Sequence record: OR757435 | Reading direction: 5' to 3' (one strand) | Length of the DNA stretch: 64,000 nt | Source of the DNA: Escherichia phage vB-EcoP-XT32 | Translations under genes and position numbers: made by a program | Notes under the pieces: model-generated | Told to the model about the DNA's origin: nothing | Seen by the model: only the letters and a program-made list of their open reading frames with translations | The model's database searches: none | Shown here: piece after piece, positions 20,029 through 63,731 of the stretch | Numbering within the stretch: the first letter of the stretch is position 1 | Layout of the letters: each line of letters begins with the position of its first letter

Positions 20029-20541
20029 ATGGCAATGCCAGATTTCAGAGGAGCTTTTACATATAACCCAAATACAGGGCATCTTTTCTGGTCTATGAGT
20101 AACATATTCAATAAACAGAAAGGGCAACGTGCTGGATGTATTAATAATAAGGGATATCGTGTACTAACCTTCAAGAAGAAATCGTACCTAGAGCACAGGG
20201 TCATAGCTGAACTCTTTCTTCCTAAAGTAGAAGGGAAGGATTATGTCAACCATAAGAATGGAATAAAAGATGATAACAGGATTGAGAATCTAGAGTGGTG
20301 TACTCAACAAGAAAACTGTGTACATGCTTATGAAACAAAACTCTCAACACCAAGAAATCTTGAGGATAACCCTAATTCCAAACTTACTAAAGAACAAGTT
20401 CTTTTCTGTTTAGAGAACTATAAACCGAGGGACAGACAGTTCGGAGCTAGAGCTTTAGCTAGGAAGTTTGGAGTCTCTTCAAGTACAATAAGCCTGATAA
20501 TCAATGGCACAAACTGGAAGGAGGTATCCTATGTTGCCTGA
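20029..20541 (+). CDS. HNH homing endonuclease (free-standing)
   Basis: GYRVLTF...EHRVIAELFL...VNHKNGIKDDNRIENLEW matches the HNH_3-type motif; AGGAGG RBS; inserted between capsid and tail genes. Confidence 0.75.
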   Translation: MAMPDFRGAFTYNPNTGHLFWSMSNIFNKQKGQRAGCINNKGYRVLTFKKKSYLEHRVIAELFLPKVEGKDYVNHKNGIKDDNRIENLEWCTQQENCVHAYETKLSTPRNLEDNPNSKLTKEQVLFCLENYKPRDRQFGARALARKFGVSSSTISLIINGTNWKEVSYVA

Positions 20542-21280
20542 CGTTCAATACCCCATCAATACCTATGGGTGGCTAAAGAAGGCCGTGGCCCTCTGGGCAG
20601 ATAGGGACGATGACGAATTTGTTAATCAAATTCCAAACTTTATTAACTTTGCAGAGAAAGAGATTTATCGTAATTTACGTATCCCTCCTCTGGAAAAAGA
20701 AGTGTATTTAGATATTAAAGATGGAGTAGCTTACATTCCTCCTGATTACTTAGAAGCTCAATGGATGATGAGAGCCAAAGATGGTACAATCTTCCAAGTA
20801 ACATCTCCTGAAGAGATTAGCTATCGTAGACAGCATGGAACAATTAACCCATCTCATTGGAACAATCAACCTGTTAACTTTGCTCGTTTCGGTAGTCGTT
20901 TCATTTTCTATCCTAGCATCGAAGCAGACACTCCGTATTACCCTGATGATGGAAGTCCTTTGATTCCAGCAGAAAACTCAGTAATTCTTAGTTATTATGC
21001 AGACCCACCGGAATTCCATGAAGACACAGACACTAGTGCTATTCTTACTATCGCACCAGAACTTCTTCTGTACTTTACTCTACGTCATGCTTGCTTGTTT
21101 GTTCAAGATGACAACGGAGTTCAGAAATGGTCAGCATTAGGAAAAGCTATCCTTGATGAAATGGTAGAGCAGAATAAGAAACAAGAGTACTCAGGTTCAC
21201 CTATCGCAATTCCGAATAACATGACTCGGCTTCAGAGCAGCTTGCCTGATATTTATGGTATTCGTACTTCTCGTGTATAA
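20531..21280 (+). CDS. virion structural protein (putative adaptor/tail component)
   Basis: Start moved to ATG 20531 (GGAGG RBS, 11-nt overlap with HNH gene); 249 aa; function by position only. Confidence 0.45.
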   Translation: MLPDVQYPINTYGWLKKAVALWADRDDDEFVNQIPNFINFAEKEIYRNLRIPPLEKEVYLDIKDGVAYIPPDYLEAQWMMRAKDGTIFQVTSPEEISYRRQHGTINPSHWNNQPVNFARFGSRFIFYPSIEADTPYYPDDGSPLIPAENSVILSYYADPPEFHEDTDTSAILTIAPELLLYFTLRHACLFVQDDNGVQKWSALGKAILDEMVEQNKKQEYSGSPIAIPNNMTRLQSSLPDIYGIRTSRV

Positions 21281-21289: not shown

Positions 21290-24200
21290 ATGATCAGTTA
21301 CAACAATTCAGCACCTACAGCGGTGAATAATGTAGGCCAATTTGGTGCTACAGAAGGATCAATTGGTGCTTATAAATCAGCGGCTGAGTATGCAGCTGAT
21401 GCTAAATATTGGGCGCTGTTATCCCAGACTAAATATTCTTCAGTAGATGAGATTCTTGCTGAGGTAGAACGTCTATACGCTCAAGGGTTCCTGCTAGAGT
21501 CTGACATTAAGCAACTTAAAGAAGACTTTGAAGCACAGAATCAGACTCTTCTAGGTCTTATTCAGTCTACGGGACAGGCTATTGACAATACAAATGCAGC
21601 TACAGATCTTTCAAGAGAAGCAACGCAGCAAGTCCTAGAACAGCTTGATATTATTTCTAATATGACGGTACAGACGACGCTACTACCCCCAGGTAGTTTG
21701 GCAACGGGTTCCTATGACAATACAACTGGTGTATTCTCTTTTGGTATTCCAGAAGGGAAGCCGGGTCGTGACGGAACAGATGGTACAATTTCAGACATTG
21801 GGGAAACTCCTGTTGGTATTCCTGTGTCGGATGATTATGGTTTTTTCGTAGATAAGGACTCTGGTGGGCTGTATAGAACCTCAATGGTTGACATTGCTAA
21901 TCTAATCCCCTCTGTTCGGTCAGTATCTCTTAATGGAGGTGTTGCTCAAACAGGAGAAGTTTCTTTACAGGTGGTTTCCAGTTTTAACTCACGGACAGGT
22001 GTTGTATCACCGCAGGCCGGAGACTATACTGTTGAGCAGATTACCGGTGCAGCTAAGAGTGGCTCTAACTCAGATATTACCTCCCTCTCAGGTCTAACCA
22101 CACCTCTCTCTCTGCTCCAAGGCGGTACGGGTTCTTCCACGGCAGAGGGGTCTAGATCTAATTTAGGATTAGGTGATGTTTCTGTAGAAAATATTGTTCC
22201 TATTTCGAAAGGTGGTACAGGAGCAATTAATACTACTATTGCTAGATCTAATTTAGGATTAGGTGATGTTTCTGTAGAAAATATTGTTCCTATTTCGAAA
22301 GGTGGTACAGGAGCAATTAATACTACTATTGCTAGATCTAATTTAGGATTAGGTGATGTTTCTGTAGAAAATATTGTTCCTATTTCGAAAGGTGGTACAG
22401 GAGCAATTAATACTACTATTGCTAGATCTAATTTAGGATTAGGTGATGTTTCTGTAGAAAATATTGTTCCTATTTCGAAAGGTGGTACAGGAGCAATTAA
22501 TACTACTATTGCTAGATCTAATTTAGGATTAGGTGATGTTTCTGTAGAAAATATTGTTCCTATTTCGAAAGGTGGTACAGGAGCAATTAATACTACTATT
22601 GCTAGATCTAATTTAGGATTAGGTGATGTTTCTGTAGAAAATATTGTTCCTATTTCGAAAGGTGGTACAGGAGCCTCTTCTCCGGACACGGCAAGGCTCG
22701 CACTGGTTGCGGCTAAGAGTGGGGCTAACTCAGATATTACTTCGATGACAAATAAGGTAACTTTTTCTCAACCTATACGTATACCAAACGCCGTTGAGAG
22801 TGACGAAGCAGTGGCATTAGGTCAGGTATCTAATGTGGTCTCTCAAGAACTAGGCCTGCCTACAGGGTTTAATCTTATTGGAGATCTCCCCTCTATTGAA
22901 CAACTTCAGACCTTAGAGGGAGCTTCTGTAGGTGACAAAGTCTTTGTAAGATCTTATGTCGAAGGGGCTAATATGGGAGGGGGTGTGTTTGTAGCAATAG
23001 ACAATTCAGAAACAGCTGATGGGGTGGTGGTTTTCAGTGGAGTTTCTGTAAAATGGAAGAGGTTGCTATTCTCTGGAGAAGCTTCTGTGTTTGATGCAGG
23101 CTACACTGGCAGCGGGGATATTGCTGTTTATATCAACAAAGTGAACTCCTCTGGTTACGATTGTATAGTTCCAACTTCTGGATCCGTATTATCTGAGATA
23201 GCTATTGACGTTTCTAAAGGAGCCTTGATAGGCTATAATAATTGTAAGCTTCAGGAAGGGGCTGGAGCAACAGGTCAATATTTCTTGAAGATTATAAATT
23301 CAAACACAGATTATGGGCTTAGAGATTCGATTTCTTCAACAGCTAAGATATCAGGAGTGTCCTTTGTTGGTCTAGGTGCCAGAAAGGTTGTAATTGGAGG
23401 GACTGATAGTGGGGAGGTGTCGGAAGTTCGGATAGAAAATTGTGGTTTTATCTCAACAGCTGGTCTTGAATTCCTTGATAATTCATATAGGATCCTTTTT
23501 GACAAATGTGCAATAAGTAGAAGCTTTACGGACACGGTTGTTTTTAAATCAAGAGCGAACTCTGGAGAAGTTATAAAGTTCAATCACTGCTGGTGCGTGG
23601 ATAACGGAGGACCTTTTACTTTTGAGAATGGACAATTCATCTTTGATACGTGTTCACTTCCTGCTGGGAAAAAGTCTGGATATTTTGACCCAACCATTAT
23701 AATGACAGACAACGCCACAGTTGTTTTTTCTAATGGGAACATTGAGTATCAACCGGATCAGTCTTTTGTTTCTTTTTCTGTTAATGGTAGTTCGAGATTG
23801 AGCATAAAAGATTCGACAATTTTGGTCCCTGTAGGTTTTAGTTCTGTCCCTATAGTAAGTAATGGGGATGGTTTTGTTTCTCTGACAAACTGCTCTCTAC
23901 CTCTGTATGGCAACAATACTCTAGCCACTGGTTTCCCTACTCGCCAACTCATCGGCGGTGATAGTAAGAGAGTTGTGTCTAACGGATGTTACCCTAGAGC
24001 TGGTTTTGTCTTAAGTAGGTGGGATCTTGGATCTATTGTAAGCCCTTACATTAATAGTCTTAGTAATGGTTCCGGGCAATTCTTAAATACATCTAACTGG
24101 ACATTTAGTCAAACAGGATCAGGGGTAGTGTCAGTTTCTCAACCCAATGATGTTCCGAGTTCGTCTCCTATGTTTAACACATCATTCTCTTTTGGTGTCC

Positions 24201-24505
24201 CAGATACGACTAGCTCGGCAAACTTCACCCAATCAGTGAGTGAGTGTCATCCCGGAAGATACTTTCAGTTTGGTTTTTGGGCTAAGAATACAACCACTAC
24301 ACTAGCATCTATTAGGTTTCTAGATTCAGCAGGTAATGCAGTTTCTGAGTCTATTGGATATTACATACCTAGTAACAACTCGTTCAGTTTCTATGCTGTT
24401 ATTGATTCAGTTCCTCCAGGGTCCAGTAAGGCTGAAATTAATTTCAACATAGGTGGCGCAGTTGGGGGGTGTGTTCTTCACAACATCATCTATGGATTGA
24501 TATGA
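21290..24505 (+). CDS. tailspike/tail fibre protein with tandem 30-aa repeats and C-terminal beta-helix-like domain
   Basis: 1071 aa; N-terminal helical region; AAKSG(S/A)NSDITS fibre-type motifs; 5.8 identical repeats RSNLGLGDVSVENIVPISKGGTGAINTTIA; C-terminal half rich in NG/GS turns with Cys-containing rungs typical of right-handed beta-helix enzymes. Confidence 0.65.
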   Translation: MISYNNSAPTAVNNVGQFGATEGSIGAYKSAAEYAADAKYWALLSQTKYSSVDEILAEVERLYAQGFLLESDIKQLKEDFEAQNQTLLGLIQSTGQAIDNTNAATDLSREATQQVLEQLDIISNMTVQTTLLPPGSLATGSYDNTTGVFSFGIPEGKPGRDGTDGTISDIGETPVGIPVSDDYGFFVDKDSGGLYRTSMVDIANLIPSVRSVSLNGGVAQTGEVSLQVVSSFNSRTGVVSPQAGDYTVEQITGAAKSGSNSDITSLSGLTTPLSLLQGGTGSSTAEGSRSNLGLGDVSVENIVPISKGGTGAINTTIARSNLGLGDVSVENIVPISKGGTGAINTTIARSNLGLGDVSVENIVPISKGGTGAINTTIARSNLGLGDVSVENIVPISKGGTGAINTTIARSNLGLGDVSVENIVPISKGGTGAINTTIARSNLGLGDVSVENIVPISKGGTGASSPDTARLALVAAKSGANSDITSMTNKVTFSQPIRIPNAVESDEAVALGQVSNVVSQELGLPTGFNLIGDLPSIEQLQTLEGASVGDKVFVRSYVEGANMGGGVFVAIDNSETADGVVVFSGVSVKWKRLLFSGEASVFDAGYTGSGDIAVYINKVNSSGYDCIVPTSGSVLSEIAIDVSKGALIGYNNCKLQEGAGATGQYFLKIINSNTDYGLRDSISSTAKISGVSFVGLGARKVVIGGTDSGEVSEVRIENCGFISTAGLEFLDNSYRILFDKCAISRSFTDTVVFKSRANSGEVIKFNHCWCVDNGGPFTFENGQFIFDTCSLPAGKKSGYFDPTIIMTDNATVVFSNGNIEYQPDQSFVSFSVNGSSRLSIKDSTILVPVGFSSVPIVSNGDGFVSLTNCSLPLYGNNTLATGFPTRQLIGGDSKRVVSNGCYPRAGFVLSRWDLGSIVSPYINSLSNGSGQFLNTSNWTFSQTGSGVVSVSQPNDVPSSSPMFNTSFSFGVPDTTSSANFTQSVSECHPGRYFQFGFWAKNTTTTLASIRFLDSAGNAVSESIGYYIPSNNSFSFYAVIDSVPPGSSKAEINFNIGGAVGGCVLHNIIYGLI
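22152..22674 (+). repeat. perfect tandem repeat, 90-bp unit x about 5.8 copies, in-frame inside the tailspike gene
   Basis: Units start at 22154, 22244, 22334, 22424, 22514, 22604 and are identical at nucleotide level. Confidence 0.9.
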
Positions 24506-24620: not shown

Positions 24621-24839
24621 ATGAAAATGATGAAACAAGCTGCATATGGTTTGGTGTGTTTAGGTGCAGGTGTTGTGGTGTCGACCGCAGTTCCTGTAGG
24701 TGCAGTTCACCCATTAGTAAATATCCCTGCTCCAGTAGAGAAACTTAGTTCTCAATGTAAGCAGAGAATAATTCAAAATAACTTAGTTGTTATTTGTCCT
24801 GATGCTGAATCTAACGCTCTGAGAAAGATATTACCTTAA
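24621..24839 (+). CDS. small protein with N-terminal hydrophobic segment (signal-anchor; weak holin candidate)
   Basis: 72 aa; AAYGLVCLGAGVVVSTAVPVGAV hydrophobic stretch; directly upstream of the lysozyme gene. Confidence 0.35.
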   Translation: MKMMKQAAYGLVCLGAGVVVSTAVPVGAVHPLVNIPAPVEKLSSQCKQRIIQNNLVVICPDAESNALRKILP

Positions 24840-24868
24840 TCTAAAGGGACTACAAAAGGAGGTTAGAA

Positions 24869-25360
24869 ATGGATAACGCCGCATTGCCACCTGTACAATT
24901 AAACTTAAGCCCAGCTGGAATTGAATTTATCATGAAGCATGAGGGTATGAGAACTAAGGCTTATAAAGATTCCGCAGGTATCTGGACGATATGTGTAGGG
25001 GCTACGCGCGATATGAATGGTTATCCGGTTAGACAAGGATTAACGTATTCTATAGAGGATTGTCTAGCTCTGCTAGATAGAGACACACAAGACTCTGTTC
25101 GTGCTACTCAGAAGAACATAAAGGTTCCTTTGCTAGTTCATGAGTTTGATGCACTCACCTCTTTCAACTTTAATGTTGGTAGTGGGGCTTTGAGCACATC
25201 TAAGTTAAGGAAGGTTATCAATGGAGACGTTAAAGGGGATGTATATTCTGAATTTCTTCGTTGGGATAAGATAACGGTCAAGGGAGTGAAGCAGAGAAGT
25301 CAGGGTCTTCATAACAGAAGGGTTGCAGAAGCTGATCTTTATACCGAAGGTAAATATTAA
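24869..25360 (+). CDS. lysozyme (T4-e/GH24-like muramidase)
   Basis: FIMKHEGMRTKAYKDSAGIWTICVG matches the GH24 catalytic region (E..EG.R...YKD..G..TIG.G); AAGGAGG RBS. Confidence 0.75.
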   Translation: MDNAALPPVQLNLSPAGIEFIMKHEGMRTKAYKDSAGIWTICVGATRDMNGYPVRQGLTYSIEDCLALLDRDTQDSVRATQKNIKVPLLVHEFDALTSFNFNVGSGALSTSKLRKVINGDVKGDVYSEFLRWDKITVKGVKQRSQGLHNRRVAEADLYTEGKY

Positions 25361-25372: not shown

Positions 25373-26176
25373 TTGGCTATTGAAACTAATGCGGTAGTAG
25401 TTACCGACTTAAACCCTCTCTATCCTCGTGATAGAGATTATATCTATGAAGGTGCAGCCCAGCTGCGCCTAGTTAAGCAAGTATTACAGAACACATTCCC
25501 CAACTTAACTGAGCCTATGACAGTAGATTCTGATACACTAGCCGCCATCTCTGACAAGATCTCTTTTGCTGGTGACTATATGGATGTTGGTGGTCTGATG
25601 ATTAAGAACGGTACAGCAGGTACTGGTAATAGCGACTTTACCACCAAAGCTCAAATGGAATCTTTTATGCTCAACTGGATGCAGAATAAGATTTACAGGG
25701 TTGGGTCTTATTACATCACTGAGGAAGATATTAACCCTGGAGATTCTACATCTTTAGGGTTTGGTATCTGGACAGCAGTTACTGGTGTTATCATGGGTGC
25801 TGGGGTTGTGAACCCTGATGGGACAGTCCCTAATGCTCAGCGTGTGGAGTTTACTGCTGGTGCTACAGGTGGTCGTGTTTACAACACAGTTAAGACAGAG
25901 AACCTGCCATTGACTACAATCTCTGGTTCAAGTTTTTCTCTTTCTAACTATACACACTCACACACTACATCATTTGGACGTGGAGATGCAAGTGGTCATA
26001 ATAGCTCACCTAACTGGTACAGTCCAGGTAGTGGATATTCTGCTGTAACAAGTTCTGATACCCACACCCACTCTATCACTGGCAATGCAACATTTGGCTA
26101 TGATGACGTATCTCGTCAACCTATAAATACGCTACCACCTTTCCGTGCAGCATATATCTGGAGACGTATTAGTTAA
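25373..26176 (+). CDS. tail fibre-like protein with C-terminal His-x-His motifs
   Basis: TTG start with GGAGGTG RBS; C-terminus YTHSHTTSFG ... DTHTHSITG resembles HxH metal-binding motifs of phage fibre tips. Confidence 0.45.
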   Translation: MAIETNAVVVTDLNPLYPRDRDYIYEGAAQLRLVKQVLQNTFPNLTEPMTVDSDTLAAISDKISFAGDYMDVGGLMIKNGTAGTGNSDFTTKAQMESFMLNWMQNKIYRVGSYYITEEDINPGDSTSLGFGIWTAVTGVIMGAGVVNPDGTVPNAQRVEFTAGATGGRVYNTVKTENLPLTTISGSSFSLSNYTHSHTTSFGRGDASGHNSSPNWYSPGSGYSAVTSSDTHTHSITGNATFGYDDVSRQPINTLPPFRAAYIWRRIS

Positions 26177-26185
26177 GGAGGAAGT

Positions 26186-29143
26186 ATGGCTCTCTACCCA
26201 ATAAAATCTTTGGGTGCGGTTGGTGTTATTGCCGACCAATCTCCTACAGATCTGGCTCCTAATGCATTCACTAATGCAATCAATGCTCGGTTTGTAGAAC
26301 AGCGTGTGTTTAAAACGGGGGGCTCTGCCCCTCTTTCTTACGTTGAGAGTGATAAAGAAATAAAACCATTATCATTCGCTTCAATGCCTTTTGACTACTT
26401 TAGCGCTAACAATAGCTTCTTGCTGGTAGGTACAGATAAGAGTATTTTTAGACTGAACAACGAATCTATGATTGATGTTAGTCGAAGAGTGGCTACAGTC
26501 ACCAAAAAAGCTGTGTCTTATGTTAAGATAAATCCTGTACTAACGGAGATCATCCCTAAAGAAACGTCTGTCATTATGAATTTTAATGAAAGCAAGACTC
26601 TTGAGGTATCTCTTCTTCCGGAGGGTGTTACTACACCATCTCTTGTGTGGGAGGTTAGTAATCCTTCTTATGGTTCAATACTAGTTGATCCTGATGATAG
26701 TAAGAAAGCTACATTGAGTGTCTTATCTAATGAGGGCAGCTTTACTGTCACTGTCTCTAATGAAGATGATTCTGTGACTGCCAGCATCTCCGTAAGGGTT
26801 GTTGATTCTGATTCTGGTATCTTCCTTAACCGGGACTCTGTCCAACTCCGTAAAGGCGGAACAACCACACTTACAGCAACATCCAGTAAGACCCCTCTAA
26901 CATGGACTTCTTCTAACCCAGCCATTATTTCTGTAGCTCCTAACGGTGATACTACTACAGCAGTTTTATCCGCTCAAGGAGTAGGTAATGCACTAATAAC
27001 TGCAAGCAATGGGTCTAAGACCTCAGAATGTTCTGTTAGTGTTATTAATCAAATTGACAGTATATCTTTGAGTCAAACAGATTTACAAATTAACCGTGGG
27101 GCGTCATATGTCTTGTATGCTAGTTTAATCCCATCAAATGCTGCAAATCAGAAAATAACTTGGACCTCCTCTAATCCAAATATTGCTACTGTTTCTGGAA
27201 CAGGTCTTCAAGGTACTATCTCTGGACTCACAGCTGGGTTCACAGTTATAACAGCAACTACGGAAGAAGGTGAGAGGACAGCTACCTGTAGTGTTAGAGT
27301 TGAGCTGTCAAGTAGAACCCTTTTTGCTGCTGCATCAGCTCCTCCTGAAGAACCGAGTTCTACGGATTCAGGTATCGACACTTCGGCTATGTCAGAGGGC
27401 AACCCTTTTTATGACTATTCTATGGTTGATGGAGTCGAAGCCTATTCTTTAAATGCAGTTATGTCAAGGTCAGCTCAACTTGAAACTTTAACTCTTGACA
27501 TTGTGGATACTGAAATTGATGTTGGAGATGAATTAGTAATAACTGCAACGGCATTCCCTGAAGGAGACTATCTTTATAATTGGGTGGTAGATCAGCCGGG
27601 ATATGTATCCTCTACTTCCACTACTGGGCCTTCCTTTACCTTAACTGCTATTAAGACTGGCAAAGTGAAGATAACCTGTACTGCTAGTCAGGTAGCTCGT
27701 AGAGACTATGAAGCGTTTGAGGAATATCCTTGGTACAATACGATTATTTCTAACTGCGCAGTATTCACCACTCACTACGAAACCCCTCAAGTAAAAGAGT
27801 TTGCCTCTGAGTACTTCACAGATCTTCCGGGGTGGGGGGAGCAGACGATAGTTGATGCTAACGGAAACCCATCTGTTGTAAAATATAACTGGAAGTGCGA
27901 AAGGATTCGTGCATTTAATAATCGCCTATTTGCTCTTAATATGCGAGAGTCTAATGCATCAGGGGTTACCACTCACTATCCTCTTCGCCTTCGCTGGTCT
28001 AATTACGCTAATGAGAATAAGGCACCTACTTTATGGGATGATTTTGCTTACGATAGATATGTGACTTCAGACTTAGCGGCAAACGTTGTAGGTCAGACTG
28101 AGGCTCTGGAAAATGGATATGCTGGGTATATAGATTTAGCTGACTCAAACGGTAGTTTAGTTGAGATTCTTCCTCTTAAGGATTACTTATTTATCTACAC
28201 AGAGTTTGAGACTTACATCGGATCCCCAACTAACAACACATATCAACCACTAATGTTCAAGAAGCTCTTCAACGATTCTGGAATCTTAGCTCCTGAGTGT
28301 GTGGTTGAAGTTGAGAGCAGTCACTTTGTTGTTACTCAGAATGATGTTATTCTACACAATGGTGCAACTAAGAAATCTATTGCATCCAACAGGGTCAAGA
28401 ACATGCTTATCAACGAAATCTGTTTAGTAAACCCTTTAGCCACTAAGGTTCACTTACATCAAGATAAGAAGGAAGTGTGGATTCTCTATGTTGGACCCGG
28501 AGAGCCTGCTGGGAGTTTTGCTTGTACTAAAGCCGCTGTATGGAACTATGAGTTTGATACATGGTCTTTCCGTACAATCCCATTCTCTCATTGTATCGGT
28601 TTAGTTGATCCTCCAACTCTAGAGAAAGGTCCTACTTGGGTGGATTTCCAAGAGTATACTTGGGATGACCCTTCAATCAGTGAACTTGTGTGGAGAAAGG
28701 ATTCTACTAACTTCCGTCAGAGAGTCACTGTAGTAGGTTCTTGGATGAAAGGCTTTTACCAAGTGGATGTAGGTCCTTATGACTACTCATTCGATAGGTT
28801 GAATGATATTGTTGTCAGGAAGCCTTTAGAGATGAAACTGGAAAGAACTGGTATAGATTTTGACAATGTAACTAACGAATGGAATCAGAAGCACATAAAC
28901 CGATTCCGTCCACAAGTAACAGGGTCAGGTACCTATATATTCCAAGCTGGCGGTAGTCAGTATTCTGATCAGGAAGATAGACATATTCACAGTGAAAAGT
29001 CTTATACGATTGGTGTGGACAGACATGTAGGTGTCCGACTGAACCATCCGTATCTATTCTATAATGTTATAGATAATGATGTTAACAGTAATGCAGCTAT
29101 CAATGGCCTAACTATTGAATTTGCTGTTGGCGGGCGAAGATAA
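26186..29143 (+). CDS. tail protein with multiple Ig-like (Big_2) domains
   Basis: 985 aa; at least three Big_2-like segments (e.g. TLTATSSKTPLTWTSSNPAIISVAPNGDTTTAVLSAQGVGNALITA); AAGGAGG RBS. Confidence 0.55.
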   Translation: MALYPIKSLGAVGVIADQSPTDLAPNAFTNAINARFVEQRVFKTGGSAPLSYVESDKEIKPLSFASMPFDYFSANNSFLLVGTDKSIFRLNNESMIDVSRRVATVTKKAVSYVKINPVLTEIIPKETSVIMNFNESKTLEVSLLPEGVTTPSLVWEVSNPSYGSILVDPDDSKKATLSVLSNEGSFTVTVSNEDDSVTASISVRVVDSDSGIFLNRDSVQLRKGGTTTLTATSSKTPLTWTSSNPAIISVAPNGDTTTAVLSAQGVGNALITASNGSKTSECSVSVINQIDSISLSQTDLQINRGASYVLYASLIPSNAANQKITWTSSNPNIATVSGTGLQGTISGLTAGFTVITATTEEGERTATCSVRVELSSRTLFAAASAPPEEPSSTDSGIDTSAMSEGNPFYDYSMVDGVEAYSLNAVMSRSAQLETLTLDIVDTEIDVGDELVITATAFPEGDYLYNWVVDQPGYVSSTSTTGPSFTLTAIKTGKVKITCTASQVARRDYEAFEEYPWYNTIISNCAVFTTHYETPQVKEFASEYFTDLPGWGEQTIVDANGNPSVVKYNWKCERIRAFNNRLFALNMRESNASGVTTHYPLRLRWSNYANENKAPTLWDDFAYDRYVTSDLAANVVGQTEALENGYAGYIDLADSNGSLVEILPLKDYLFIYTEFETYIGSPTNNTYQPLMFKKLFNDSGILAPECVVEVESSHFVVTQNDVILHNGATKKSIASNRVKNMLINEICLVNPLATKVHLHQDKKEVWILYVGPGEPAGSFACTKAAVWNYEFDTWSFRTIPFSHCIGLVDPPTLEKGPTWVDFQEYTWDDPSISELVWRKDSTNFRQRVTVVGSWMKGFYQVDVGPYDYSFDRLNDIVVRKPLEMKLERTGIDFDNVTNEWNQKHINRFRPQVTGSGTYIFQAGGSQYSDQEDRHIHSEKSYTIGVDRHVGVRLNHPYLFYNVIDNDVNSNAAINGLTIEFAVGGRR

Positions 29144-38700: not shown

Positions 38701-40201
38701 TAACACCTATAACAGAGAAGTGAATGCCTTCAACAAAGCTAACAAGAACTCTCAGTATGAAGCTGCTGCTAAGCATTTACAGGCTCGTGAAGAACGTCTT
38801 GCCACTCTGAAAAACAAAGCTCAGGCTCGTTCAGATGCTAAGGCTGCTGTTGAGAATGAACGTAAAACTCTAGAGGCTATTGCAGCTCAGAAGAGTGAGA
38901 TTGAGAAGATGATGGAAGGTTTACCTAAACCTGTTCGTGAGGCTCAGGAATCTCGTACATTGAAACAGTTGGCTGCTCACCATGACAAGAACTCTCCAGT
39001 TCCTCCAGAGAAGTTCCGTAGTTACATTGAACGTATCCACAACGCCGAGTCAGATTACCTTGATCGTCAGCGTCGTTTAACTGATGCAGAGGAAGATGCT
39101 CGTCAGGCCAAGTGGAACAAGATGTATGAGCAAGCGGAAGAGATGAACCGTAAGTTTGATGTGGACAAGAGAGTTAAGCGCAGTGAAGAGCTTAAAGCGG
39201 CCCAAGAGCGTGAGAATGACCTTATGGCAGTACAACGTCAACGTGATGACATTCATCGCCGTCTGGTGCGTACTATGGAAGATAAGGGCATATCTAGAGA
39301 GGATGCTGAAGCGTTTGCTGGTTCCTACATGGATAACCGTTATGCACTTCTTGAGAAGCCTATGACTCCAACTGAACATCAGAATGCTCGTTCTCGTATC
39401 GAGGCTGATGTTGAGAAGTTTGCTAAGAAGTACGAATCAATGACTCCTATCGAGAAAGAGATTGTTAAGGTTACTGGAGATACTGAAGGTAAGATTGATA
39501 ATTTGGATTCGGATACTAGGAAGGCTATTGAGGAAGCTCAGAAGGTTGACTCTGATATTAAGAAACTGCAAGAGGAAGAGATGGAGATGGAGAAGATTCG
39601 TTCTGCTCTGCCTGACGATGAAAAATCTCAAGCAAATTCTGATATCTTGGAAAGTATTAAGCAGCAGGAAGAAGTCTTTGCTGATAAAGTAGAGAAAGCT
39701 TTCTTGAGTGGGAAGAGCTTGGATGAGTTAGCTAGTGTGGCTGAAGTTTTAGACAGGGTTCATGGTGCAGATAAGGCTGGTAACAACCGTCGCTTTGTAC
39801 GTGCATTGCAGACTGCTGCTGAAAACAAGAAGAAGTATGGCGATAATCCGGTAGCTTGGTTTAGTGCTGATGATTATTCTGCTATTGCTAAACTTGGTGC
39901 TTCTTCCGCAGGTGGTAACAAATCCAGAGCACTGGAGAAGATCTTTGGTTCTACAGCTGAACAGGCTAAGAGTAAGTTGCTTGGCAGGGATGATGTAGCG
40001 AAGATGAGACGTGTGATTGAAGAGAACCCTGATGTTAAGATTCCTTCTTACAAGACAACGAATCGTACTGAGTACTTGCAGTTCTTGGAGAAGTTTAATG
40101 ACGAAGGGAAGCCGAAGATTAAACGTGGCTCATTGTCAGAGAAGCTTGAACGCAGTAAGCGTCAATCGAGACTCCGTGTAAGAGTTCGACCTAAGGAGTG
40201 A
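35780..40201 (+). CDS. large virion protein (1473 aa), coiled-coil rich; putative internal/ejection protein
   Basis: Start set to ATG 35780 (AAGGAG RBS); Ala/Glu/Lys/Arg-rich helical protein with internal EEEAAQA...EPLPAR duplication; last gene of the morphogenesis block. Confidence 0.5.
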   Translation: MANIKPWEEASKAPAYLNASPERQAQMREQYKAAGGSIPEEQPVAQPQQEERGAIGEFAQGVSNALQSGGANIAASAAKGIGGLVEIGENLAGAQTSYGKRIQENSQNLLKDRMDKIEDGIGKTAGQYAGVVGDIGLTVANPLAAAAIIAGRETGRAYADQTPEEGEDKSVLDAALVGGANYAAQRILPGAVGTAESTLGRIGQNVASNAVAGAKGGALVGAAEAQNKHGDDTTFSNVLEGAIEEGAMGAAFGGAVGGVHGLISRPDSAVFKNTPEYAKTDIAADDELIRSAKNIDELKEAYSKAETANAASALNLLDENGFRITDAVAVDSPAAQRILNTDQARAEKAASVQKEHSNIPGLNPLASPSKVRGKAFADNEHNQKQAVAMKDAMADYTKDNTKALTDVLDNLDRELVSLRASGDFPGSPIDIKNRTQADRDFIDAYKTFYNEANRFKARDGEDFNNFVEKAAELQKMADNVSPEMKKAIGGLKKLKGMPEGFNPIQDAYTLNNTAKFMSNQDRGWTSLTDDGFREASSPSLVMNTLGAAKYALNRFSSQRARSQRVKQQESNSEAIRSLARGDLEVARAKSTADEARAKMEEEPVVGDIKFKTQNDVETEPVREPSSSTVTEENLSSSAPQETPLTARDLVAQRRAIRQAEQRRAEEEAAQAQEAPVEQAPQAEPLPARNPLEERRAMEQQRAQEEAAQAPEPTVEEPTVKAEPLPARAPKAPKEAVQDVKPASGVERLAAMSSAARQATKDRAERFARSLYSEAAKAKATAENFLAYKGGTKELMRRIRQEDNAINTERHEEMARNQLSSQQGIATAKNNTVRTNFAEWVKERGLPEDIATKALRAEEKGLGGNVTNLDSLKRRAERLYQKQREDEFDRLYQQALEENKAFDKKDAPKLVDQKKELQSEIDTLIDSEPLRPAQKDAMRKLMNDYVDGKFKSSEKAGREEALEVGQMKDVWDGFINTYNREVNAFNKANKNSQYEAAAKHLQAREERLATLKNKAQARSDAKAAVENERKTLEAIAAQKSEIEKMMEGLPKPVREAQESRTLKQLAAHHDKNSPVPPEKFRSYIERIHNAESDYLDRQRRLTDAEEDARQAKWNKMYEQAEEMNRKFDVDKRVKRSEELKAAQERENDLMAVQRQRDDIHRRLVRTMEDKGISREDAEAFAGSYMDNRYALLEKPMTPTEHQNARSRIEADVEKFAKKYESMTPIEKEIVKVTGDTEGKIDNLDSDTRKAIEEAQKVDSDIKKLQEEEMEMEKIRSALPDDEKSQANSDILESIKQQEEVFADKVEKAFLSGKSLDELASVAEVLDRVHGADKAGNNRRFVRALQTAAENKKKYGDNPVAWFSADDYSAIAKLGASSAGGNKSRALEKIFGSTAEQAKSKLLGRDDVAKMRRVIEENPDVKIPSYKTTNRTEYLQFLEKFNDEGKPKIKRGSLSEKLERSKRQSRLRVRVRPKE

Positions 40202-52332: not shown

Positions 52333-53070
52333 TTAAGCTTTCTTTTCCATTGCTTTAACAATAGCTTTACAGAAACCAGAACGAACAATGTCATCTGATT
52401 CGCCGTCTACAATCTCAGCGAACTCATACAGATCATGTTCATCAATAAAGTTAGTAGCCCAAGTAAGACCACTCTCACGACCACGCATATCATGCTGGTT
52501 TGTATCACCCATGCAGAACAGCTGAGAGGTTTCTCCCAATCGAGTCATGATTGAGAAGGCTTCATCTTTAGTGGTGTTCTGGAACTCATCAACGATAACG
52601 ATAGCATCATTGAAAGAACGACCACGGAGATACTCCAGAGGTACAAACTCAATGTTACTATTACCGAGCTGGCATTCATAGAACCCCTTACCATATCTCT
52701 GAGTAATAACATCAATGATTGGCATCAGATATGGTTCAAATTTCTCACGCATTCCTCCCGGAAGCAACCCAAGTGAGTTACCCATGCCAACAGAAGGGCG
52801 ACTCAGAATGATCTTCTGAATCTTACCACTCTTCAGTGCATCAATAACTGTGGAAGTGATTACAAAGGTCTTCCCGCAGCCCGCAGGAGCGTCTGTGAAC
52901 ACAACTTGTTTAGTCTTGATAGCATTGAGCAGTTCAGACTGGAACTGGTTCTGAGGGACTACAGGCTTTGCTAAAACCACCTCTTCAAACTCGCGCTTAC
53001 CCTTACGAGTGACAAGTGCTTCCCGACGAAGGTCTTTCCGTGATTCTTTCCGTGATTGACGACGACTCAT
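52333..53070 (-). CDS. phoH: PhoH-like ATPase
   Basis: Walker A DAPAGCGKT and overall length/pattern of PhoH-family proteins. Confidence 0.7.
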   Translation of the reverse strand: MSRRQSRKESRKDLRREALVTRKGKREFEEVVLAKPVVPQNQFQSELLNAIKTKQVVFTDAPAGCGKTFVITSTVIDALKSGKIQKIILSRPSVGMGNSLGLLPGGMREKFEPYLMPIIDVITQRYGKGFYECQLGNSNIEFVPLEYLRGRSFNDAIVIVDEFQNTTKDEAFSIMTRLGETSQLFCMGDTNQHDMRGRESGLTWATNFIDEHDLYEFAEIVDGESDDIVRSGFCKAIVKAMEKKA

Positions 53071-57447: not shown

Positions 57448-57556
57448 GTTTCTTAGCAATACGAGCCTCTTTGCGAGTGTCAAACAATTTGATGCTATCT
57501 TTTCTCGTGTGTTGATCAAGATCCCAAACAACACGAATCGCCCACATCTTTTTCAT
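57448..57556 (-). CDS. hypothetical small protein (MKKxW family), 3' end lost in assembly gap
   Basis: N-terminal MKKMWAIRVVWDLDQHTRKDSIKLFDTRKEARIAKK then N-run. Confidence 0.35.
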
Positions 57557-57765
57557 TAGTAATGTACCTTTCCGCTGATATAAACACGACCAGAAGAATA
57601 CTCCTTGGCCTTATGGATACTGATACTATTGACCACGTCACCAGTAAGCATAGTCTTTTTAAAATCTCGAGCCTGTTGACGAGTAGGAAGTGCAGTCATA
57701 GTCATACCACCTGATGCCCACTTAATCTTTGCTAACCAAAACTGTCTCATAGTGATTGGTCTCAT
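57556..57765 (-). CDS. hypothetical small protein (MKKxW family)
   Basis: 69-aa ORF; ...TRQQARDFKK motif. Confidence 0.4.
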   Translation of the reverse strand: MRPITMRQFWLAKIKWASGGMTMTALPTRQQARDFKKTMLTGDVVNSISIHKAKEYSSGRVYISGKVHY

Positions 57766-57962
57766 TAATAATAAACCTTGCTGTTGGCAAAAAGAGCACC
57801 TTCGTTATTCACAATAGCTTTTCCTATTGTAACCTTATTGAGTCTAAAAGTAGACTTGTATTGGTTTTTGACCCTACGGGCGTGTTCTCGAGTGTTAATA
57901 AAATCTACAGCTACCAAGTCTCCAGTCGTATCATCATGTACACGAACAATCCACTTTTTCAT
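57765..57962 (-). CDS. hypothetical small protein (MKKxW family)
   Basis: MKKWIVRVHDD ... NTREHARRVKNQ. Confidence 0.4.
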   Translation of the reverse strand: MKKWIVRVHDDTTGDLVAVDFINTREHARRVKNQYKSTFRLNKVTIGKAIVNNEGALFANSKVYY

Positions 57963-58165
57963 TTTACTAAACCCTTCATATAGTTATAAAGATCGTTAGA
58001 GGCTTTACCCCATTCAAGGTGCTTCTTATCCATATAGCTCTTACAAGCTTCTTTACTGCTTTCGACGCATATATCAAATTGATGACATGCTCGACCAAAT
58101 GTCATAGCTTTTAATTGAACCTCGGTAGTCAAACCTTTCAGTTCTTGGAACTCTTCTTCAGTCAT
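57959..58165 (-). CDS. hypothetical protein
   Basis: 68-aa ORF, ATGA overlap with neighbour. Confidence 0.4.
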   Translation of the reverse strand: MTEEEFQELKGLTTEVQLKAMTFGRACHQFDICVESSKEACKSYMDKKHLEWGKASNDLYNYMKGLVK

Positions 58166-58699
58166 TTACACACCTTTAGATGCAACTACACCTTCAGAGT
58201 TATTATAACGCCCCTTCACTGCATAGGAATGTTCCCCTGCATGAGAGTGCTCAAACATCACCATCTGACCAACACGCATACCAGCACGAACTCGTAAACT
58301 GTGGTGCTTGGTTACGTTATGGAATTCAAATGTCAGCTTACTGCTATTAAATCCTGCATCTGCCCAACCGGCGTGAAGGTGGTTCAAACCACAACGAGCC
58401 ATAGACGAACGCAGAACAAACAGACTTGAGATGTTATCTGGAAGATTAAACTCCTCCATGGAGTGAGCCAAGAAGAACTGACCCGGAGTGATAACCAAAC
58501 CCTCTTCAGGAATTTTTACTTCCTTCCACTGAAGATTTTCTTTCGCATCAATATCAACGATGCCATCAGCCTGTTCTTCAACAAGGATAGTATCACCAAT
58601 ACGGATATCCACACTAGCAGCGTTAACATACTTATGCTCCGCATCCAGATAGCCATTATCAATTACATCGTGTAGTTCAACACTTCCTAGTAAACTCAT
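58166..58699 (-). CDS. dcd: dCTP deaminase
   Basis: AASVDIRIGD, HAGWADAGFNSSKLTFEF and C-terminal YNNSEGVVASKG match the Dcd signature (VD.RLG, GW.D.G..G...LE, Y..QQGAVASR). Confidence 0.75.
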   Translation of the reverse strand: MSLLGSVELHDVIDNGYLDAEHKYVNAASVDIRIGDTILVEEQADGIVDIDAKENLQWKEVKIPEEGLVITPGQFFLAHSMEEFNLPDNISSLFVLRSSMARCGLNHLHAGWADAGFNSSKLTFEFHNVTKHHSLRVRAGMRVGQMVMFEHSHAGEHSYAVKGRYNNSEGVVASKGV

Positions 58700-58708
58700 T
58701 TTTATTCC

Positions 58709-59785
58709 TTAGTTATTTGTTTCCATGTCAAAAGAAAATCCACGACCCGCTTCATCGGCAAACCGAACTGTACGGGTTTGAGGCTCTAATACTTCAGGGT
58801 TGTTAGCAACAAACCGATCAGCGAGACTTTGGTTGACAGTTTCAGCGAGTTCCCCATGAGAGGGAATATTAAGATCGGCGAGATTATCAACCACATCTTG
58901 GGCCACGTCTTCATCAGTCCATACAGCCCTAACAGGTGCGTTGAAACTCTGACCAGAGAACTGGTGACGGCTAACAGTCAAACCATTTGATTGACCATTA
59001 GAACGTCTAGACAACCACTGCTCAAATGAATCGCCAGTAACACCAAGAGCTTCTTCAAAAGATGTTCTACGAGTAGAGCTTAGATTTCGTGCTTCGTTTG
59101 CTCGACGTCTTGCAGGGGCTACAAACACCCCTTCAACTGCATTGTGCCGATTAGGTTCATCTTCTCGACCAAGGAGATCTCCTCCTGTATTAGTTGTTAA
59201 GTTTGTCAACCCTTCAGACCAATATGCACGAATCTGGCTAGAGCCGTGAATGATTGACATTAACTGAATCTCTTCATAAGGGATTCCAAAGAATATACTC
59301 ATGTCTCGGTTAACACAATATTGAGCACTTGTTGTATCCTCAATAAGAGAAACCTGACCTAATCCACTAACCAGATGACTAACTGGCTGAGGTGTAGGAA
59401 GGTATCGAGTTTGGGCCATATATTGATATGCAACAGATGGAGCTGAGAATCTTAACACTTGTGAATTAGGCCACTTTTTGTGAACGTATCTGATTTCACG
59501 ACTAGAAACAACCACCGGGCAAGGAGCGGTCATAGCCAAATATCCATGAGGAGTCATGAATAGGTTTTCAAGGGTCATCGCACCACGACACATCATAGGA
59601 AAATTATCCAATACCTCTTCGATAGAAGTGGGATAATTAAACATGAATTGGATTCGAGTTCCCTGCCACTGAAATTCAATGATATCAGTGAATGTTAATT
59701 GGGAAGTTCCTGTATATGGTTCATCTGTAGTTTCAGCAAGAAGAGATGAATACTCAATATCTTGTGACTCTAGCCACTCTTTCAC
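58709..59785 (-). CDS. hypothetical protein (358 aa), partner of the upstream nucleotidyltransferase
   Basis: GTG start in ATGA-type overlap with the NTase stop; no ATG in frame upstream; no recognised motif. Confidence 0.45.
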   Translation of the reverse strand: MKEWLESQDIEYSSLLAETTDEPYTGTSQLTFTDIIEFQWQGTRIQFMFNYPTSIEEVLDNFPMMCRGAMTLENLFMTPHGYLAMTAPCPVVVSSREIRYVHKKWPNSQVLRFSAPSVAYQYMAQTRYLPTPQPVSHLVSGLGQVSLIEDTTSAQYCVNRDMSIFFGIPYEEIQLMSIIHGSSQIRAYWSEGLTNLTTNTGGDLLGREDEPNRHNAVEGVFVAPARRRANEARNLSSTRRTSFEEALGVTGDSFEQWLSRRSNGQSNGLTVSRHQFSGQSFNAPVRAVWTDEDVAQDVVDNLADLNIPSHGELAETVNQSLADRFVANNPEVLEPQTRTVRFADEAGRGFSFDMETNN

Positions 59786-60051
59786 ATTGCTTTCAATCTC
59801 ACGCCCAAGAGCTTGCCACTGAAAGTGTTTTGAGTTCTTGGTGTCTGTCCTCTGACAATAAAGATATCGATGTCATGAGGTGCTATGTTATTAAGAACAG
59901 CGTCACGAACAGCCCCACCAGTAATGATGGGACAGATACCATCTGGAATCAAGTTGTTGTTAATCAGCTGTTCAATGAAGTGACGACCGACAGTGATATC
60001 AGGTTGTTGAGCAACCTTATCTTCAATTCGGTTAATCGGGATAACAATCAT
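59782..60051 (-). CDS. pol-beta-superfamily nucleotidyltransferase (CCA-adding/poly(A) polymerase-type head motif)
   Basis: GGAVRDAVLNNIAPHDIDIFI matches the GGxVRD...DxD signature of class II tRNA nucleotidyltransferases; ORF stops 24 aa after the motif. Confidence 0.5.
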   Translation of the reverse strand: MIVIPINRIEDKVAQQPDITVGRHFIEQLINNNLIPDGICPIITGGAVRDAVLNNIAPHDIDIFIVRGQTPRTQNTFSGKLLGVRLKAM

Positions 60052-60052
60052 T

Positions 60053-60607
60053 TTACATTTTCCAATATAATGAAGGTGGGTCGTAAGGGTCAAATCCTGT
60101 GAGTTCACACAAGTATTTATAAACCTTAACGGTTAAGTTAACGTCCTGTTCACAGTAAGTAAACATATCTTCAGTGAAAGCATCCCATGCTTCCTCTTGC
60201 TCACCGTAGTCTCCTTTAAGTTCCTCTAAGAACTCACCCCATTGCTTCAAACCATGACCTCTTGGGCCATGTCTAGGGTCACCTTTCGGATACTCAGGAC
60301 TGTCACCAATACGGTCAGGTTTAAGATATCGACTAAGACACAAGGTGTCGAAGACGTTAAAACGATAGTCGATCAGATTGGGATACATCTTCTTCAGAGC
60401 ACAAAGGTCGAAGTCAATAATATTATGACCTACGAGCACATCAGCTTCTGTAAGTTTACGAACCCCATCTTCAATTTGGTGAGGCCGATAGCCCCACCTT
60501 TCACCAGTTTCAACATCGAAGATGTAAATACACCATACTTTAGTTATGTCATCGTATAGTGCATTACTCTCGATATCAAAAGCAAACACTTTCTTTTTCT
60601 TTACCAC
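60053..60607 (-). CDS. 3'-5' proofreading exonuclease domain of T7-like DNA polymerase, separately encoded
   Basis: Exo I FDIESNAL, Exo II HNIIDFD, Exo III YCEQDV; alignable along its length with the T7 gene 5 N-terminal domain. Confidence 0.75.
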
Positions 60608-62391: not shown

Positions 62392-62417
62392 GCTCTTCCT
62401 CCTTGGAATCCTTGAGC

Positions 62418-62621
62418 TTAGTAGAACGAACGAATTTCATCCCACACTTGTTCCTGTTCTTTCCTATAAAAAGAAAGTTGGGTCTTGAACATCTCCACTG
62501 ATGATTCAAAGTTTTTAGATTGTGCAGCTTCAACGAAACGTTCATGTCGGTTGATTTTGCACCGTAGCATTAAATACTTGGCTTCAAGTCTCCGAAGAGC
62601 CTGTCTTTTCTCAAGATTCAC
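62418..62621 (-). CDS. hypothetical small helical protein
   Basis: 67-aa ORF directly upstream of the primase-helicase RBS. Confidence 0.4.
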   Translation of the reverse strand: MNLEKRQALRRLEAKYLMLRCKINRHERFVEAAQSKNFESSVEMFKTQLSFYRKEQEQVWDEIRSFY

Positions 62622-63030: not shown

Positions 63031-63031
63031 T

Positions 63032-63725: not shown

Positions 63726-63731
63726 ATATCC

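What the first reader, a model, noticed from the sequence alone, without database searches (positions are those of the whole stretch)
22152..22674. Perfect 90-bp tandem repeats (about 5.8 copies) inside the tailspike gene
Identical 90-bp units encode the 30-aa module RSNLGLGDVSVENIVPISKGGTGAINTTIA in frame. Nucleotide-perfect copies imply very recent expansion and a recombination-prone site that could vary fibre length, or an assembly artefact. The array also creates a spurious 221-aa antisense ORF.
Basis: seen in the sequence. Interest (0 to 1): 0.55.

Follow-up and report, generated by a model that had tools for sequence, protein, structure and literature searches.

The report
Amplified shaft repeat in phage tailspike
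One 30-amino-acid building block of the stalk of an E. coli O78 phage's tail fibre/tailspike has been copied head-to-tail about six times with no sequence differences, probably lengthening the fibre; the copy number differs between sister phages, and one sister's database record is misassembled at this site.

Summary
Window 22152-22674 is a perfect 90-bp tandem array of 5.8 copies, in frame in a 1071-aa gene (21290-24505). The genome is a Kuravirus (phiEco32/SU10-like podovirus), a close sibling of Escherichia phages vB-EcoP-XT18 and XT73. The protein is a chimera. Residues 1-229 match the SU10 long-tail-fibre proximal protein, residues 509-1071 match the O78-cleaving tailspike TSP4 of CBA120, and the array lies in the shaft between them. 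The unit is a bona fide member of an old, widespread 30-aa fibre-shaft module (GGTGAxxAAxARxNLGLGxVATENxVPISK). Orthologues carry 0 (an IMG/VR contig), 1 (ES17), 4 (XT73) or 6 (window) units at the same junction. Independent, slightly diverged 90-bp duplications of this module occur in a T5-like phage and in Kuravirus TH42. XT73 has 3.8 perfect copies. XT18 has the same 3.8 copies plus a 31-nt out-of-phase insertion with the signature of a k=31 assembly misjoin. The locus is therefore most likely a real, recently amplified, recombination-prone length polymorphism of the fibre shaft, but the exact copy number in any of these assemblies is unverified. In-frame tandem duplication in phage fibre genes is a known phenomenon, so interest is modest.

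The parts
21290..24505 (+). Fibre-tailspike gene (1071 aa), orthologue of SU10 gp12 by position and by N-terminus. It is followed directly by the holin and lysozyme genes, with no distal-fibre (gp13) gene.
   Evidence: ORF. PHROG tail fiber / tail protein hits. Gene order in XT18 and XT73 annotation. PDB matches.
21290..21976 (+). N-terminal anchor domain (aa 1-229), homologous to the SU10 long-tail-fibre proximal protein that docks on the tail adaptor.
   Evidence: PDB 7z47_D residues 1-226, E 1e-95. Role of gp12 from PMC9509320.
22049..22153 (+). Upstream degenerate shaft module (AAKSGSNSDITSLSGLTTPLSLLQGGTGSSTAEGS), whose GGTG starts the first 30-aa unit. GC here is about 0.5, against 0.33 in the array.
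   Evidence: Translation. The same module is in SU10 gp12 residues 465-545. Composition.
22152..22674 (+). Perfect 90-bp tandem array of 5.8 copies. Together with the preceding GGTG it forms six GGTG-to-GGTG 30-aa shaft units (aa 278-457).
22676..22834 (+). Conserved junction after the array (SSPDTARLALVAAKSGANSDITSMTNKVTFSQP...), shared with ES17, 1-6bf, FH3, WFI101126 and the IMG/VR orthologue. It links the shaft to the head.
22814..24502 (+). Receptor-destroying head (aa 509-1071), homologous to CBA120 TSP4, the O78 O-antigen depolymerase.
   Evidence: PDB 5w6h, E 1e-245. About 63-68% identity to tailspikes of many O78 phages. Specificity from PMC8825819.
22024..22689 (-). 221-aa antisense ORF, a by-product of the repeat. 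It is not considered a gene.
   Evidence: Only one antisense frame of the unit is stop-free. No real family hits.

Best explanation
The array is a real, very recently amplified or continually homogenised, in-frame variable-number tandem repeat of one 30-aa structural module of the trimeric fibre shaft. The gene encodes the single long fibre of a Kuravirus. An N-terminal anchor binds the tail adaptor, a modular shaft follows, and a C-terminal O78 O-antigen-degrading tailspike head ends the protein. The module (GGTGA-x5-ARxNLGLG-x8-VPIxK) is an ancient shaft building block that normally occurs as one to three diverged copies. In this lineage two adjacent units became identical. Replication slippage or unequal homologous recombination between 90-bp direct repeats then added units, and it can also remove them. 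Because 90 is a multiple of 3, every copy number keeps the reading frame. The result is a shaft whose length changes in steps of one module. I estimate roughly 2-3 nm per unit by analogy with a slender trimeric fibre that carries the same motif. This moves the enzymatic head further from or closer to the tail. Shown here: the array itself, its in-frame position between anchor and head, module homology, unit-number variation among orthologues and siblings, and independent duplications of the same module elsewhere. Inferred: the slippage/recombination mechanism, the length increment per unit, and any effect on adsorption. The exact copy number (5.8) is not verified, because perfect 523-nt arrays exceed short-read length and a sibling record is misassembled at this very place.
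For: The array is perfect and in frame. The domain map comes from PDB 7z47 (aa 1-229) and 5w6h (aa 509-1071). The unit keeps all invariant positions of a 21-member module alignment. The same module is found in SU10 gp12, PhiM1 gp47 and P7-1 gp92 fibres and in 251 fibre proteins with diverse heads. Unit number at the conserved ARLALVAAKSG junction is 0 in L013, 1 in ES17, 4 in XT73 and 6 in the window. XT73 differs from the window by exactly 180 nt in the array and by 4 SNPs elsewhere in the gene. The window is a distinct isolate, 99.5-99.96% identical to XT18 over most of the genome and 93-98% at one end. Independent 90-bp duplications of this module that have begun to diverge, and are therefore unambiguous to assemble, occur in T5-like mar003J3 (2.3 copies, 96%), Kuravirus TH42 (1.8 copies, 98%) and an IMG/VR contig (2.3 copies, 89%). 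The inter-unit linker AINTTIA exists only between units, so at least 1.8 copies must be physically real. De Bruijn assemblers tend to collapse perfect tandem arrays rather than expand them (general knowledge). There is an experimental precedent for in-frame tandem duplications of varying copy number in a phage tail-fibre gene just upstream of its carbohydrate-binding part (PMC6365445).
Against: No reads are available, so the copy number cannot be checked. The XT18 record shows that assembly fails inside this array. After correction, XT18 and XT73, which come from the same submission series, both have 3.8 copies. The 5.8 versus 3.8 difference could therefore reflect different pipelines rather than biology. 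In my sample of about 39 module-bearing loci nothing outside this clade exceeds 2.3 copies, so 5.8 perfect copies is an outlier. The AF2 monomer model of the shaft is of low confidence (pLDDT 58.7), so the structural consequence is inferred, not shown.
Confidence: 0.68

Rival explanations
1. Assembly artefact. The physical genome has only about 1.8-2 units, and the assembler or gap-closer traversed the 90-bp loop too many times, so the extra copies do not exist.
For: The XT18 record contains a 31-nt out-of-phase insertion inside the array. Two abutting 31-mers share a 30-nt prefix, which fits a k=31 graph branch misjoin, and the insertion breaks the gene at aa 354. A 523-nt perfect array cannot be spanned by 150-nt reads (general knowledge). 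The 5.8 perfect copies are an outlier among sampled module-bearing loci. The exact 1071-aa protein is not on record in public assemblies.
Against: Three assemblies of three distinct isolates all give at least 3.8 copies. Graph assemblers usually collapse tandem repeats rather than inflate them (general knowledge). The window's array is in phase and keeps the reading frame. Variation in unit number at this junction is seen in unambiguous, diverged form in other phages.
Confidence: 0.17
2. Selected contingency locus. The array is maintained as a hypermutable fibre-length rheostat. Phage populations constantly contain plus or minus one-unit variants, and selection by O-antigen chain length or capsule thickness picks the best reach for the tailspike head. 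This extends the best explanation rather than excluding it.
For: Sibling phages isolated on the same O78 host differ by exactly two units. All copy numbers preserve the frame (90 = 30 codons). The array sits just N-terminal to the O-antigen-degrading head. In EfV12-phi1, in-frame fibre duplications arose only under coevolution with hosts mutated in exopolysaccharide genes and were heterogeneous within populations (PMC6365445).
Against: There are no population data and no phenotype. The difference may be neutral or technical. Most relatives manage with 0-3 diverged units.
Confidence: 0.2
3. Imported cassette. The AT-rich unit was acquired by recombination from a lower-GC phage fibre gene and then amplified, rather than arising from the resident module.
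For: The array has GC 0.33 and GC3 0.03, against flanks of about 0.5 and gene GC3 of 0.32 (binomial P 1.3e-4). The best nucleotide matches outside the clade are to T5-like and Klebsiella jumbo-phage fibres at 70-79%. The linker AINTTIA resembles neither flanking linker.
Against: No donor was found. The unit and its linker are absent from viral, metagenome and genome contigs, even in a codon-independent search. Homologous resident modules in relatives also have low GC3, 0.10-0.37. Most unit codons are the gene's own preferred synonymous codons. ES17 has a 70%-identical module at the same position.
Confidence: 0.1

Closest known systems
SU10 (Kuravirus) long tail fibre proximal protein gp12 (PDB 7z47; PMC9509320)
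   Same: The N-terminal 229 residues are homologous (E 1e-95). The gene sits in the same position, after the virion structural gene. The same shaft modules are present, including two tandem 30-aa units (residues 465-545). It is a trimeric fibre attached to the adaptor.
   Different: SU10 gp12 ends in a joint to a separate distal protein, gp13. Here there is no gp13, and the shaft is fused directly to a TSP4-type enzymatic head. SU10's units are diverged copies, not identical ones. The shaft was not resolved in the SU10 maps, where only residues 1-90 were built.
CBA120 tailspike TSP4 (PDB 5w6h), O78 O-antigen depolymerase
   Same: Residues 509-1071 align over the whole catalytic and C-terminal part at about 65% identity. 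The siblings' host is E. coli O78.
   Different: TSP4 has an N-terminal baseplate-anchor and TSP-assembly region for a branched complex in a myovirus. It has no 30-aa shaft array.
In-frame tandem duplications in the tail-fibre gene of Enterococcus phage EfV12-phi1 (PMC6365445)
   Same: Both are identical in-frame tandem copies just upstream of the carbohydrate-binding part of a fibre. Copy number is variable and was heterogeneous within populations there. No sequence diversification occurs within copies.
   Different: The unit there is 1.8 kb and arose during a laboratory coevolution experiment, verified by PCR and MinION. Here the unit is 90 bp, exactly one pre-existing structural module, seen only in assemblies.
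Diverged tandem 30-aa GGTG/ARxNLGLG modules in other fibres (T5-like L-shaped fibre of mar003J3, Kuravirus TH42, prophage and tailocin fibres)
   Same: They share the same module, the same 30-aa period and the same head-to-tail arrangement. Recent duplications are also seen (96-98% identity).
   Different: They have at most 2.3 copies, already carrying substitutions. The window has 5.8 copies with none.
Length-determining repeats in other viral fibres and rulers (adenovirus fibre shaft pseudo-repeats; phage tape-measure protein repeats); from general knowledge, not tested here
   Same: The number of in-frame repeats sets the length of an elongated virion protein.
   Different: These are unrelated sequences and folds. 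Their repeats are diverged and fixed per type, not nucleotide-identical.

Membership tests
Kuravirus long tail fibre proximal protein (SU10 gp12-like) | N-terminal adaptor-binding and coiled-coil region homologous to gp12 | tested here: met
   PDB 7z47_D residues 1-226 against query 1-229, E 1e-95. phrog_10305 residues 1-228, E 3e-90.
Kuravirus long tail fibre proximal protein (SU10 gp12-like) | Syntenic position downstream of major capsid, Ig-like and virion structural genes in a Kuravirus genome | tested here: met
   Gene order in XT18, XT73, ES17, WFI101126 and Bas92 annotations. Window identity to XT18 is 99.5-99.96%.
Kuravirus long tail fibre proximal protein (SU10 gp12-like) | C-terminus that joins a separate distal fibre protein (gp13) | tested here: not met
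   The next genes are holin and lysozyme. The C-terminus is a TSP4-like head. This is therefore a fused fibre-tailspike variant, as in XT73, ES17, WFI101126 and 1-6bf.
TSP4-type O78 tailspike (CBA120 orf213) | Homology over the catalytic beta-helix and C-terminal domain | tested here: met
   5w6h_A residues 139-697 against query 509-1071, E 1e-245. tblastn gives about 65% identity.
TSP4-type O78 tailspike (CBA120 orf213) | Enzymatic cleavage of O78 O-antigen | not testable with these tools
   Inferred from homology and from the O78 host of XT18 and XT73.
30-aa GGTG/ARxNLGLG fibre-shaft module | Conserved positions G1 G2 T3 R12 L15 G16 G18 P27 with a 30-residue period | tested here: met
   Alignment A2 of 21 modules from unrelated fibres. 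The window unit has every invariant residue and is 57-74% identical to the others.
30-aa GGTG/ARxNLGLG fibre-shaft module | Forms part of a slender trimeric shaft | tested here: inconclusive
   The motif occurs in fibres described as slender trimers (P7-1 gp92, PMC12697256). My AF2 monomer model has pLDDT 58.7 and shows only a 30-residue periodicity.
Variable-number tandem repeat (length-polymorphic coding repeat) | Head-to-tail identical units whose number differs between otherwise near-identical genomes | tested here: met
   The window has 5.8 copies and XT73 3.8 copies, with 4 SNPs in the other 2693 nt of the gene. XT18 has 0 SNPs in the gene flanks. Caveat: the comparison is between assemblies, not reads.
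Variable-number tandem repeat (length-polymorphic coding repeat) | Copy number physically verified and shown to change on propagation | not testable with these tools
   This needs reads, PCR or long-read data.

The most novel reading that the evidence does not exclude
The array is a dedicated, selected fibre-length rheostat. A perfect in-frame VNTR makes every lysate a mixture of tailspike reach variants, allowing a podovirus with a single fused fibre-spike to track changes in O-antigen chain length or capsule thickness without changing its receptor specificity.
Probability: 0.15. Interest if true: 0.6.

Novelty: new member of a known kind. Interest (0 to 1): 0.3.

Why it matters
This has two practical uses. 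First, it is a quality flag. The fibre gene, which determines host range, contains a stretch that short reads cannot size. The public XT18 record already carries a frameshifting misjoin there that splits the gene into two annotated CDSs. Anyone using these O78/APEC phages for therapy or engineering should size the locus by PCR or long reads. Second, it gives a clean natural series (0, 1, 4, 6 units) of one defined shaft module between a conserved anchor and a conserved enzymatic head. This would be a convenient system for testing how fibre length affects adsorption through O-antigen or capsule layers, and a natural site for engineering fibre length. Conceptually it adds an example to the known phenomenon of in-frame duplication in phage fibre genes. 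It does not reveal a new mechanism.

Tried and rejected
- **Pfam on the whole protein, the shaft segment and the antisense ORF:** only hits such as INPP5B_PH (E 3.8e-10) and Ste5 (E 4.3e-8), each with zero significant stretches. These are summation artefacts of the repeat and were rejected.
- **Exact 47- and 50-nt unit probes:** no match in viral, metagenome or genome contigs.
- **Codon-independent probe for GAINTTIARSNLGLG:** no match in the same three collections, so no donor and no further copy-number variants were found.
- **Exact-protein look-up in public assemblies:** not on record.
- **Large protein search with aa 230-520:** 251 module-bearing fibres but no near-identical protein, and oddly not the Kuravirus orthologues.
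- **N-terminal anchor used to fetch orthologues from IMG/VR:** only one locus returned, so the copy-number survey is small.
- **AF2 monomer of the shaft:** pLDDT 58.7 and pTM 0.26, too poor for a fold search, which I therefore did not run.
- **Literature searches:** no paper on XT18/XT73 sequencing methods. Peptide strings of the motif returned nothing.
- **Engineered concatemer:** the first boundary reads TCTAGATCT (XbaI+BglII) and internal junctions read GCTAGATCT, like an NheI/XbaI scar. I rejected this because the sites follow directly from the conserved Ser/Ala-Arg-Ser codons. The codons include rare E. coli ones, and the sibling phages carrying the array (XT18, XT73) are sewage isolates.
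- **tRNA supply for AGA/TTA codons:** no tRNA gene in the window.
- **Promoter or terminator function of the array:** no such sites inside it.

Full report
**Observation.** The sequence at 22152-22674 is a perfect tandem array. Tandem Repeats Finder gives period 90, 5.8 copies, 100% matches and no indels. A direct scan finds exact lag-90 identity over 523 nt. The only other array in the 64-kb window is a 25-nt one at 53033-53057, so chance is excluded. The array lies in frame in the 1071-aa ORF 21290..24505(+) and encodes RSNLGLGDVSVENIVPISKGGTGAINTTIA, with the first full unit at aa 289. The 221-aa antisense ORF (22024..22689, minus strand) exists. It reflects the fact that one of the three antisense frames of the unit has no stop codon, and it has no genuine family match.

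**What the genome and the gene are.** The gene is 99.9% identical to that of Escherichia phage vB-EcoP-XT73, and its flanks are 100% identical to those of vB-EcoP-XT18. Both are Kuravirus (Gordonclarkvirinae; phiEco32/SU10-like podoviruses) isolated from chicken-farm sewage on an E. coli O78 strain. Over the whole window, identity to XT18 is 99.5-99.96% for positions 1-56952 and 93-98% for 57448-64000. The window is therefore a distinct sibling isolate, not the same assembly.

The protein is a chimera:
- Residues 1-229 match the long-tail-fibre proximal protein gp12 of SU10 (PDB 7z47, E 1e-95).
- Residues 509-1071 match the crystal structure of CBA120 tailspike TSP4 (PDB 5w6h, E 1e-245).
- In SU10, gp12 is a trimer whose N-terminus docks on the tail adaptor, and only residues 1-90 could be built (PMC9509320).
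- TSP4 cleaves the O78 O-antigen (PMC8825819), and the same head is shared at 63-68% identity by many O78-infecting phages of unrelated morphotypes.
- Unlike SU10, there is no distal-fibre gene. Holin and lysozyme genes follow directly.

The array therefore sits in the shaft between the virion anchor and the enzymatic head.

**What the unit is.** The 30-aa unit is not an oddity. It belongs to an ancient, widespread fibre-shaft module.
- An alignment of 21 modules from unrelated fibres gives the consensus GGTGAxxAAxARxNLGLGxVATENxVPISKGGTGA. The window unit has every invariant residue (G1 G2 T3 R12 L15 G16 G18 P27) and is 57-74% identical to the others. Only its linker, INTTI, is atypical.
- The module occurs in SU10 gp12 itself (residues 465-545, two tandem units) and in the fibres of PhiM1 (8vbx) and Pakpunavirus P7-1 (9zd7).
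- It also occurs in 251 proteins in the large protein collection. These are mostly short prophage, tailocin and phage fibres with diverse C-terminal heads.
- P7-1 gp92 is described as a slender trimer about 410 A long and about 25 A thick for 499 residues (PMC12697256). From this I estimate, roughly and by analogy only, 2-3 nm per 30-aa unit.
- My AF2 monomer model of aa 230-520 is of low confidence (pLDDT 58.7, pTM 0.26). It shows only a 30-residue periodicity with one short helix per unit, so I did not use it for fold comparison.

**Variation at this site.** Orthologues share the conserved junction ...GGTG(x6)ARLALVAAKSGxNSDITSMTNKVTF that follows the array. The number of 30-aa units immediately before it differs:
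- none in an IMG/VR Kuravirus contig (L013)
- one in ES17
- four in XT73
- six in the window

XT73 has the identical unit in 3.8 perfect copies. It differs from the window by exactly 180 nt in the array and by 4 SNPs in the remaining 2693 nt of the gene. Independent 90-bp duplications of the same module family that have already begun to diverge, and are therefore unambiguous to assemble, exist in three places:
- the L-shaped fibre of T5-like vB_Eco_mar003J3 (2.3 copies, 96%)
- Kuravirus TH42 (1.8 copies, 98%)
- one IMG/VR contig (2.3 copies, 89%)

Duplication of exactly one module is thus a recurrent natural event. However, in my sample of about 39 module-bearing loci nothing outside the XT clade exceeds 2.3 copies, so 5.8 perfect copies is an outlier.

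**Evidence of assembly trouble.** The XT18 record has a 374-nt array. It equals XT73's 343-nt array plus a 31-nt insertion (CTGTTCC...GGAGC). The insertion places two 31-mers that share a 30-nt prefix next to each other. One is the array's exit branch (...GGAGCC) and the other is its loop branch (...GGAGCA). This is what a k=31 de Bruijn graph misjoin would produce (inference). It shifts the frame, stops translation at aa 354, and caused the gene to be annotated as two CDSs. A phage isolated on O78 is unlikely to lack its O78 tailspike, so I read this as an error in the record. It shows that short-read assembly fails at this locus and that the numbers 5.8 and 3.8 are not verified. Three points argue against a purely artefactual array:
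- Three assemblies of three distinct isolates all give at least 3.8 copies.
- Graph assemblers usually collapse tandem repeats rather than inflate them (general knowledge).
- The inter-unit linker exists only between units, so at least 1.8 copies must be real.

**Composition and origin.** The array has GC 0.33 and GC3 0.03 (29 of 30 codons end in A or T). This compares with about 0.5 GC in the 200-nt flanks and GC3 0.32 in the rest of the gene (binomial P 1.3e-4). This suggested import from a low-GC phage, but several results argue against it:
- Homologous modules in relatives also have low GC3, 0.10-0.37.
- Most unit codons are the gene's own preferred ones.
- ES17 has a 70%-identical module at the same place.
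- No donor exists in any collection. Exact probes and a codon-independent probe for GAINTTIARSNLGLG found nothing in viral, metagenome or genome contigs.
- The best matches in annotated phages outside the clade are 70-79% identical.

I therefore favour in-situ amplification of a resident pair of modules.

**Mechanism.** The steps, with their basis:
1. Shown: two adjacent units of a modular shaft are identical at the nucleotide level.
2. Inferred: replication slippage or unequal homologous recombination between the 90-bp direct repeats adds or removes whole units.
3. Shown: every copy number keeps the frame.
4. Inferred: each unit lengthens the trimeric shaft by one module, changing the distance between the tail and the O-antigen-degrading head.

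Whether this is neutral or selected is open. A precedent exists in Enterococcus phage EfV12-phi1. There, identical in-frame tandem duplications just upstream of the carbohydrate-binding part of the fibre arose only under coevolution with hosts mutated in exopolysaccharide genes. They varied in copy number within populations, as shown by PCR and MinION (PMC6365445).

**Verdict.** The feature is most likely a real, recently amplified length polymorphism of a known kind of shaft module in a fibre-tailspike chimera, with an unverified exact copy number. It is a new member of a known kind. Its value is mainly practical: an annotation and assembly warning for a host-range gene, and a natural series for testing the effect of fibre length.

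Noticed in passing
L002 4837-5210 (GenBank OR757434.1, XT18, about 39328-39701): The public XT18 record has a 31-nt out-of-phase insertion inside the array, which splits the fibre-tailspike gene into two overlapping annotated CDSs (WPK41844.1 and WPK41843.1). Removing it restores an array identical to XT73's. This is probably a k=31 assembly misjoin.
   Followed up: yes
window 20029-20541 (+): An HNH endonuclease gene lies just upstream of the fibre module and overlaps the start of the next virion structural gene (20504-21280). It is present in the window, XT18, 1-6bf, FH3 and IME267 but absent from XT73, ES17 and WFI101126. Window 20048-20534 has no counterpart in XT73. This is a presence/absence polymorphism typical of a homing endonuclease.
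   Followed up: partly
window 57448-61458: This stretch is only about 93-94% identical to XT18, whereas the rest of the window is 99.5-99.96% identical. It is a mosaic patch marking the window as a distinct isolate.
   Followed up: no
phage record MZ417522.1 (hits H79, H111): A 24,953-bp record labelled 'Mycolicibacterium phage J1' (host M. smegmatis) carries a fibre gene with the same match statistics as E. coli Kuravirus ES17. This suggests contamination or mislabelling of that record.
   Followed up: no
L011 300-503 (T5-like vB_Eco_mar003J3 fibre g125) and L012 283-447 (Kuravirus TH42): These are independent recent 90-bp tandem duplications of the same 30-aa shaft module (2.3 copies at 96%; 1.8 copies at 98%). 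They show that single-module duplication recurs in unrelated phage lineages.
   Followed up: yes
window 21977-22849 (+) and 22027-22689 (-): Pfam reports seemingly significant whole-protein E-values (INPP5B_PH 3.8e-10, Ste5 4.3e-8) with zero significant individual stretches. These are false positives produced by summing weak matches over identical repeats.
   Followed up: yes
window 24621-25360: The lysis cassette (holin and lysozyme) sits between the long-fibre gene and the short-fibre and nozzle genes (25373-29143). There is no distal long-fibre gene (SU10 gp13 equivalent), unlike Bas92 and IME267, where a second fibre gene follows.
   Followed up: partly
window 22152-22674: 29 of 30 codons of the unit end in A or T (GC3 0.03 against 0.32 for the rest of the gene), and the window encodes no tRNA. 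The cause of the compositional patch is unexplained, and no donor sequence was found.
   Followed up: partly
P0002, P0003 (proteins): Other prophage and metagenomic fibres carry their own near-identical duplicated blocks of the related 37-aa module (…SGANSDITSLSxLSTPLSLSQGGTGATTASGARSNLSAA…). Recent module duplication is therefore common across this fibre class.
   Followed up: no
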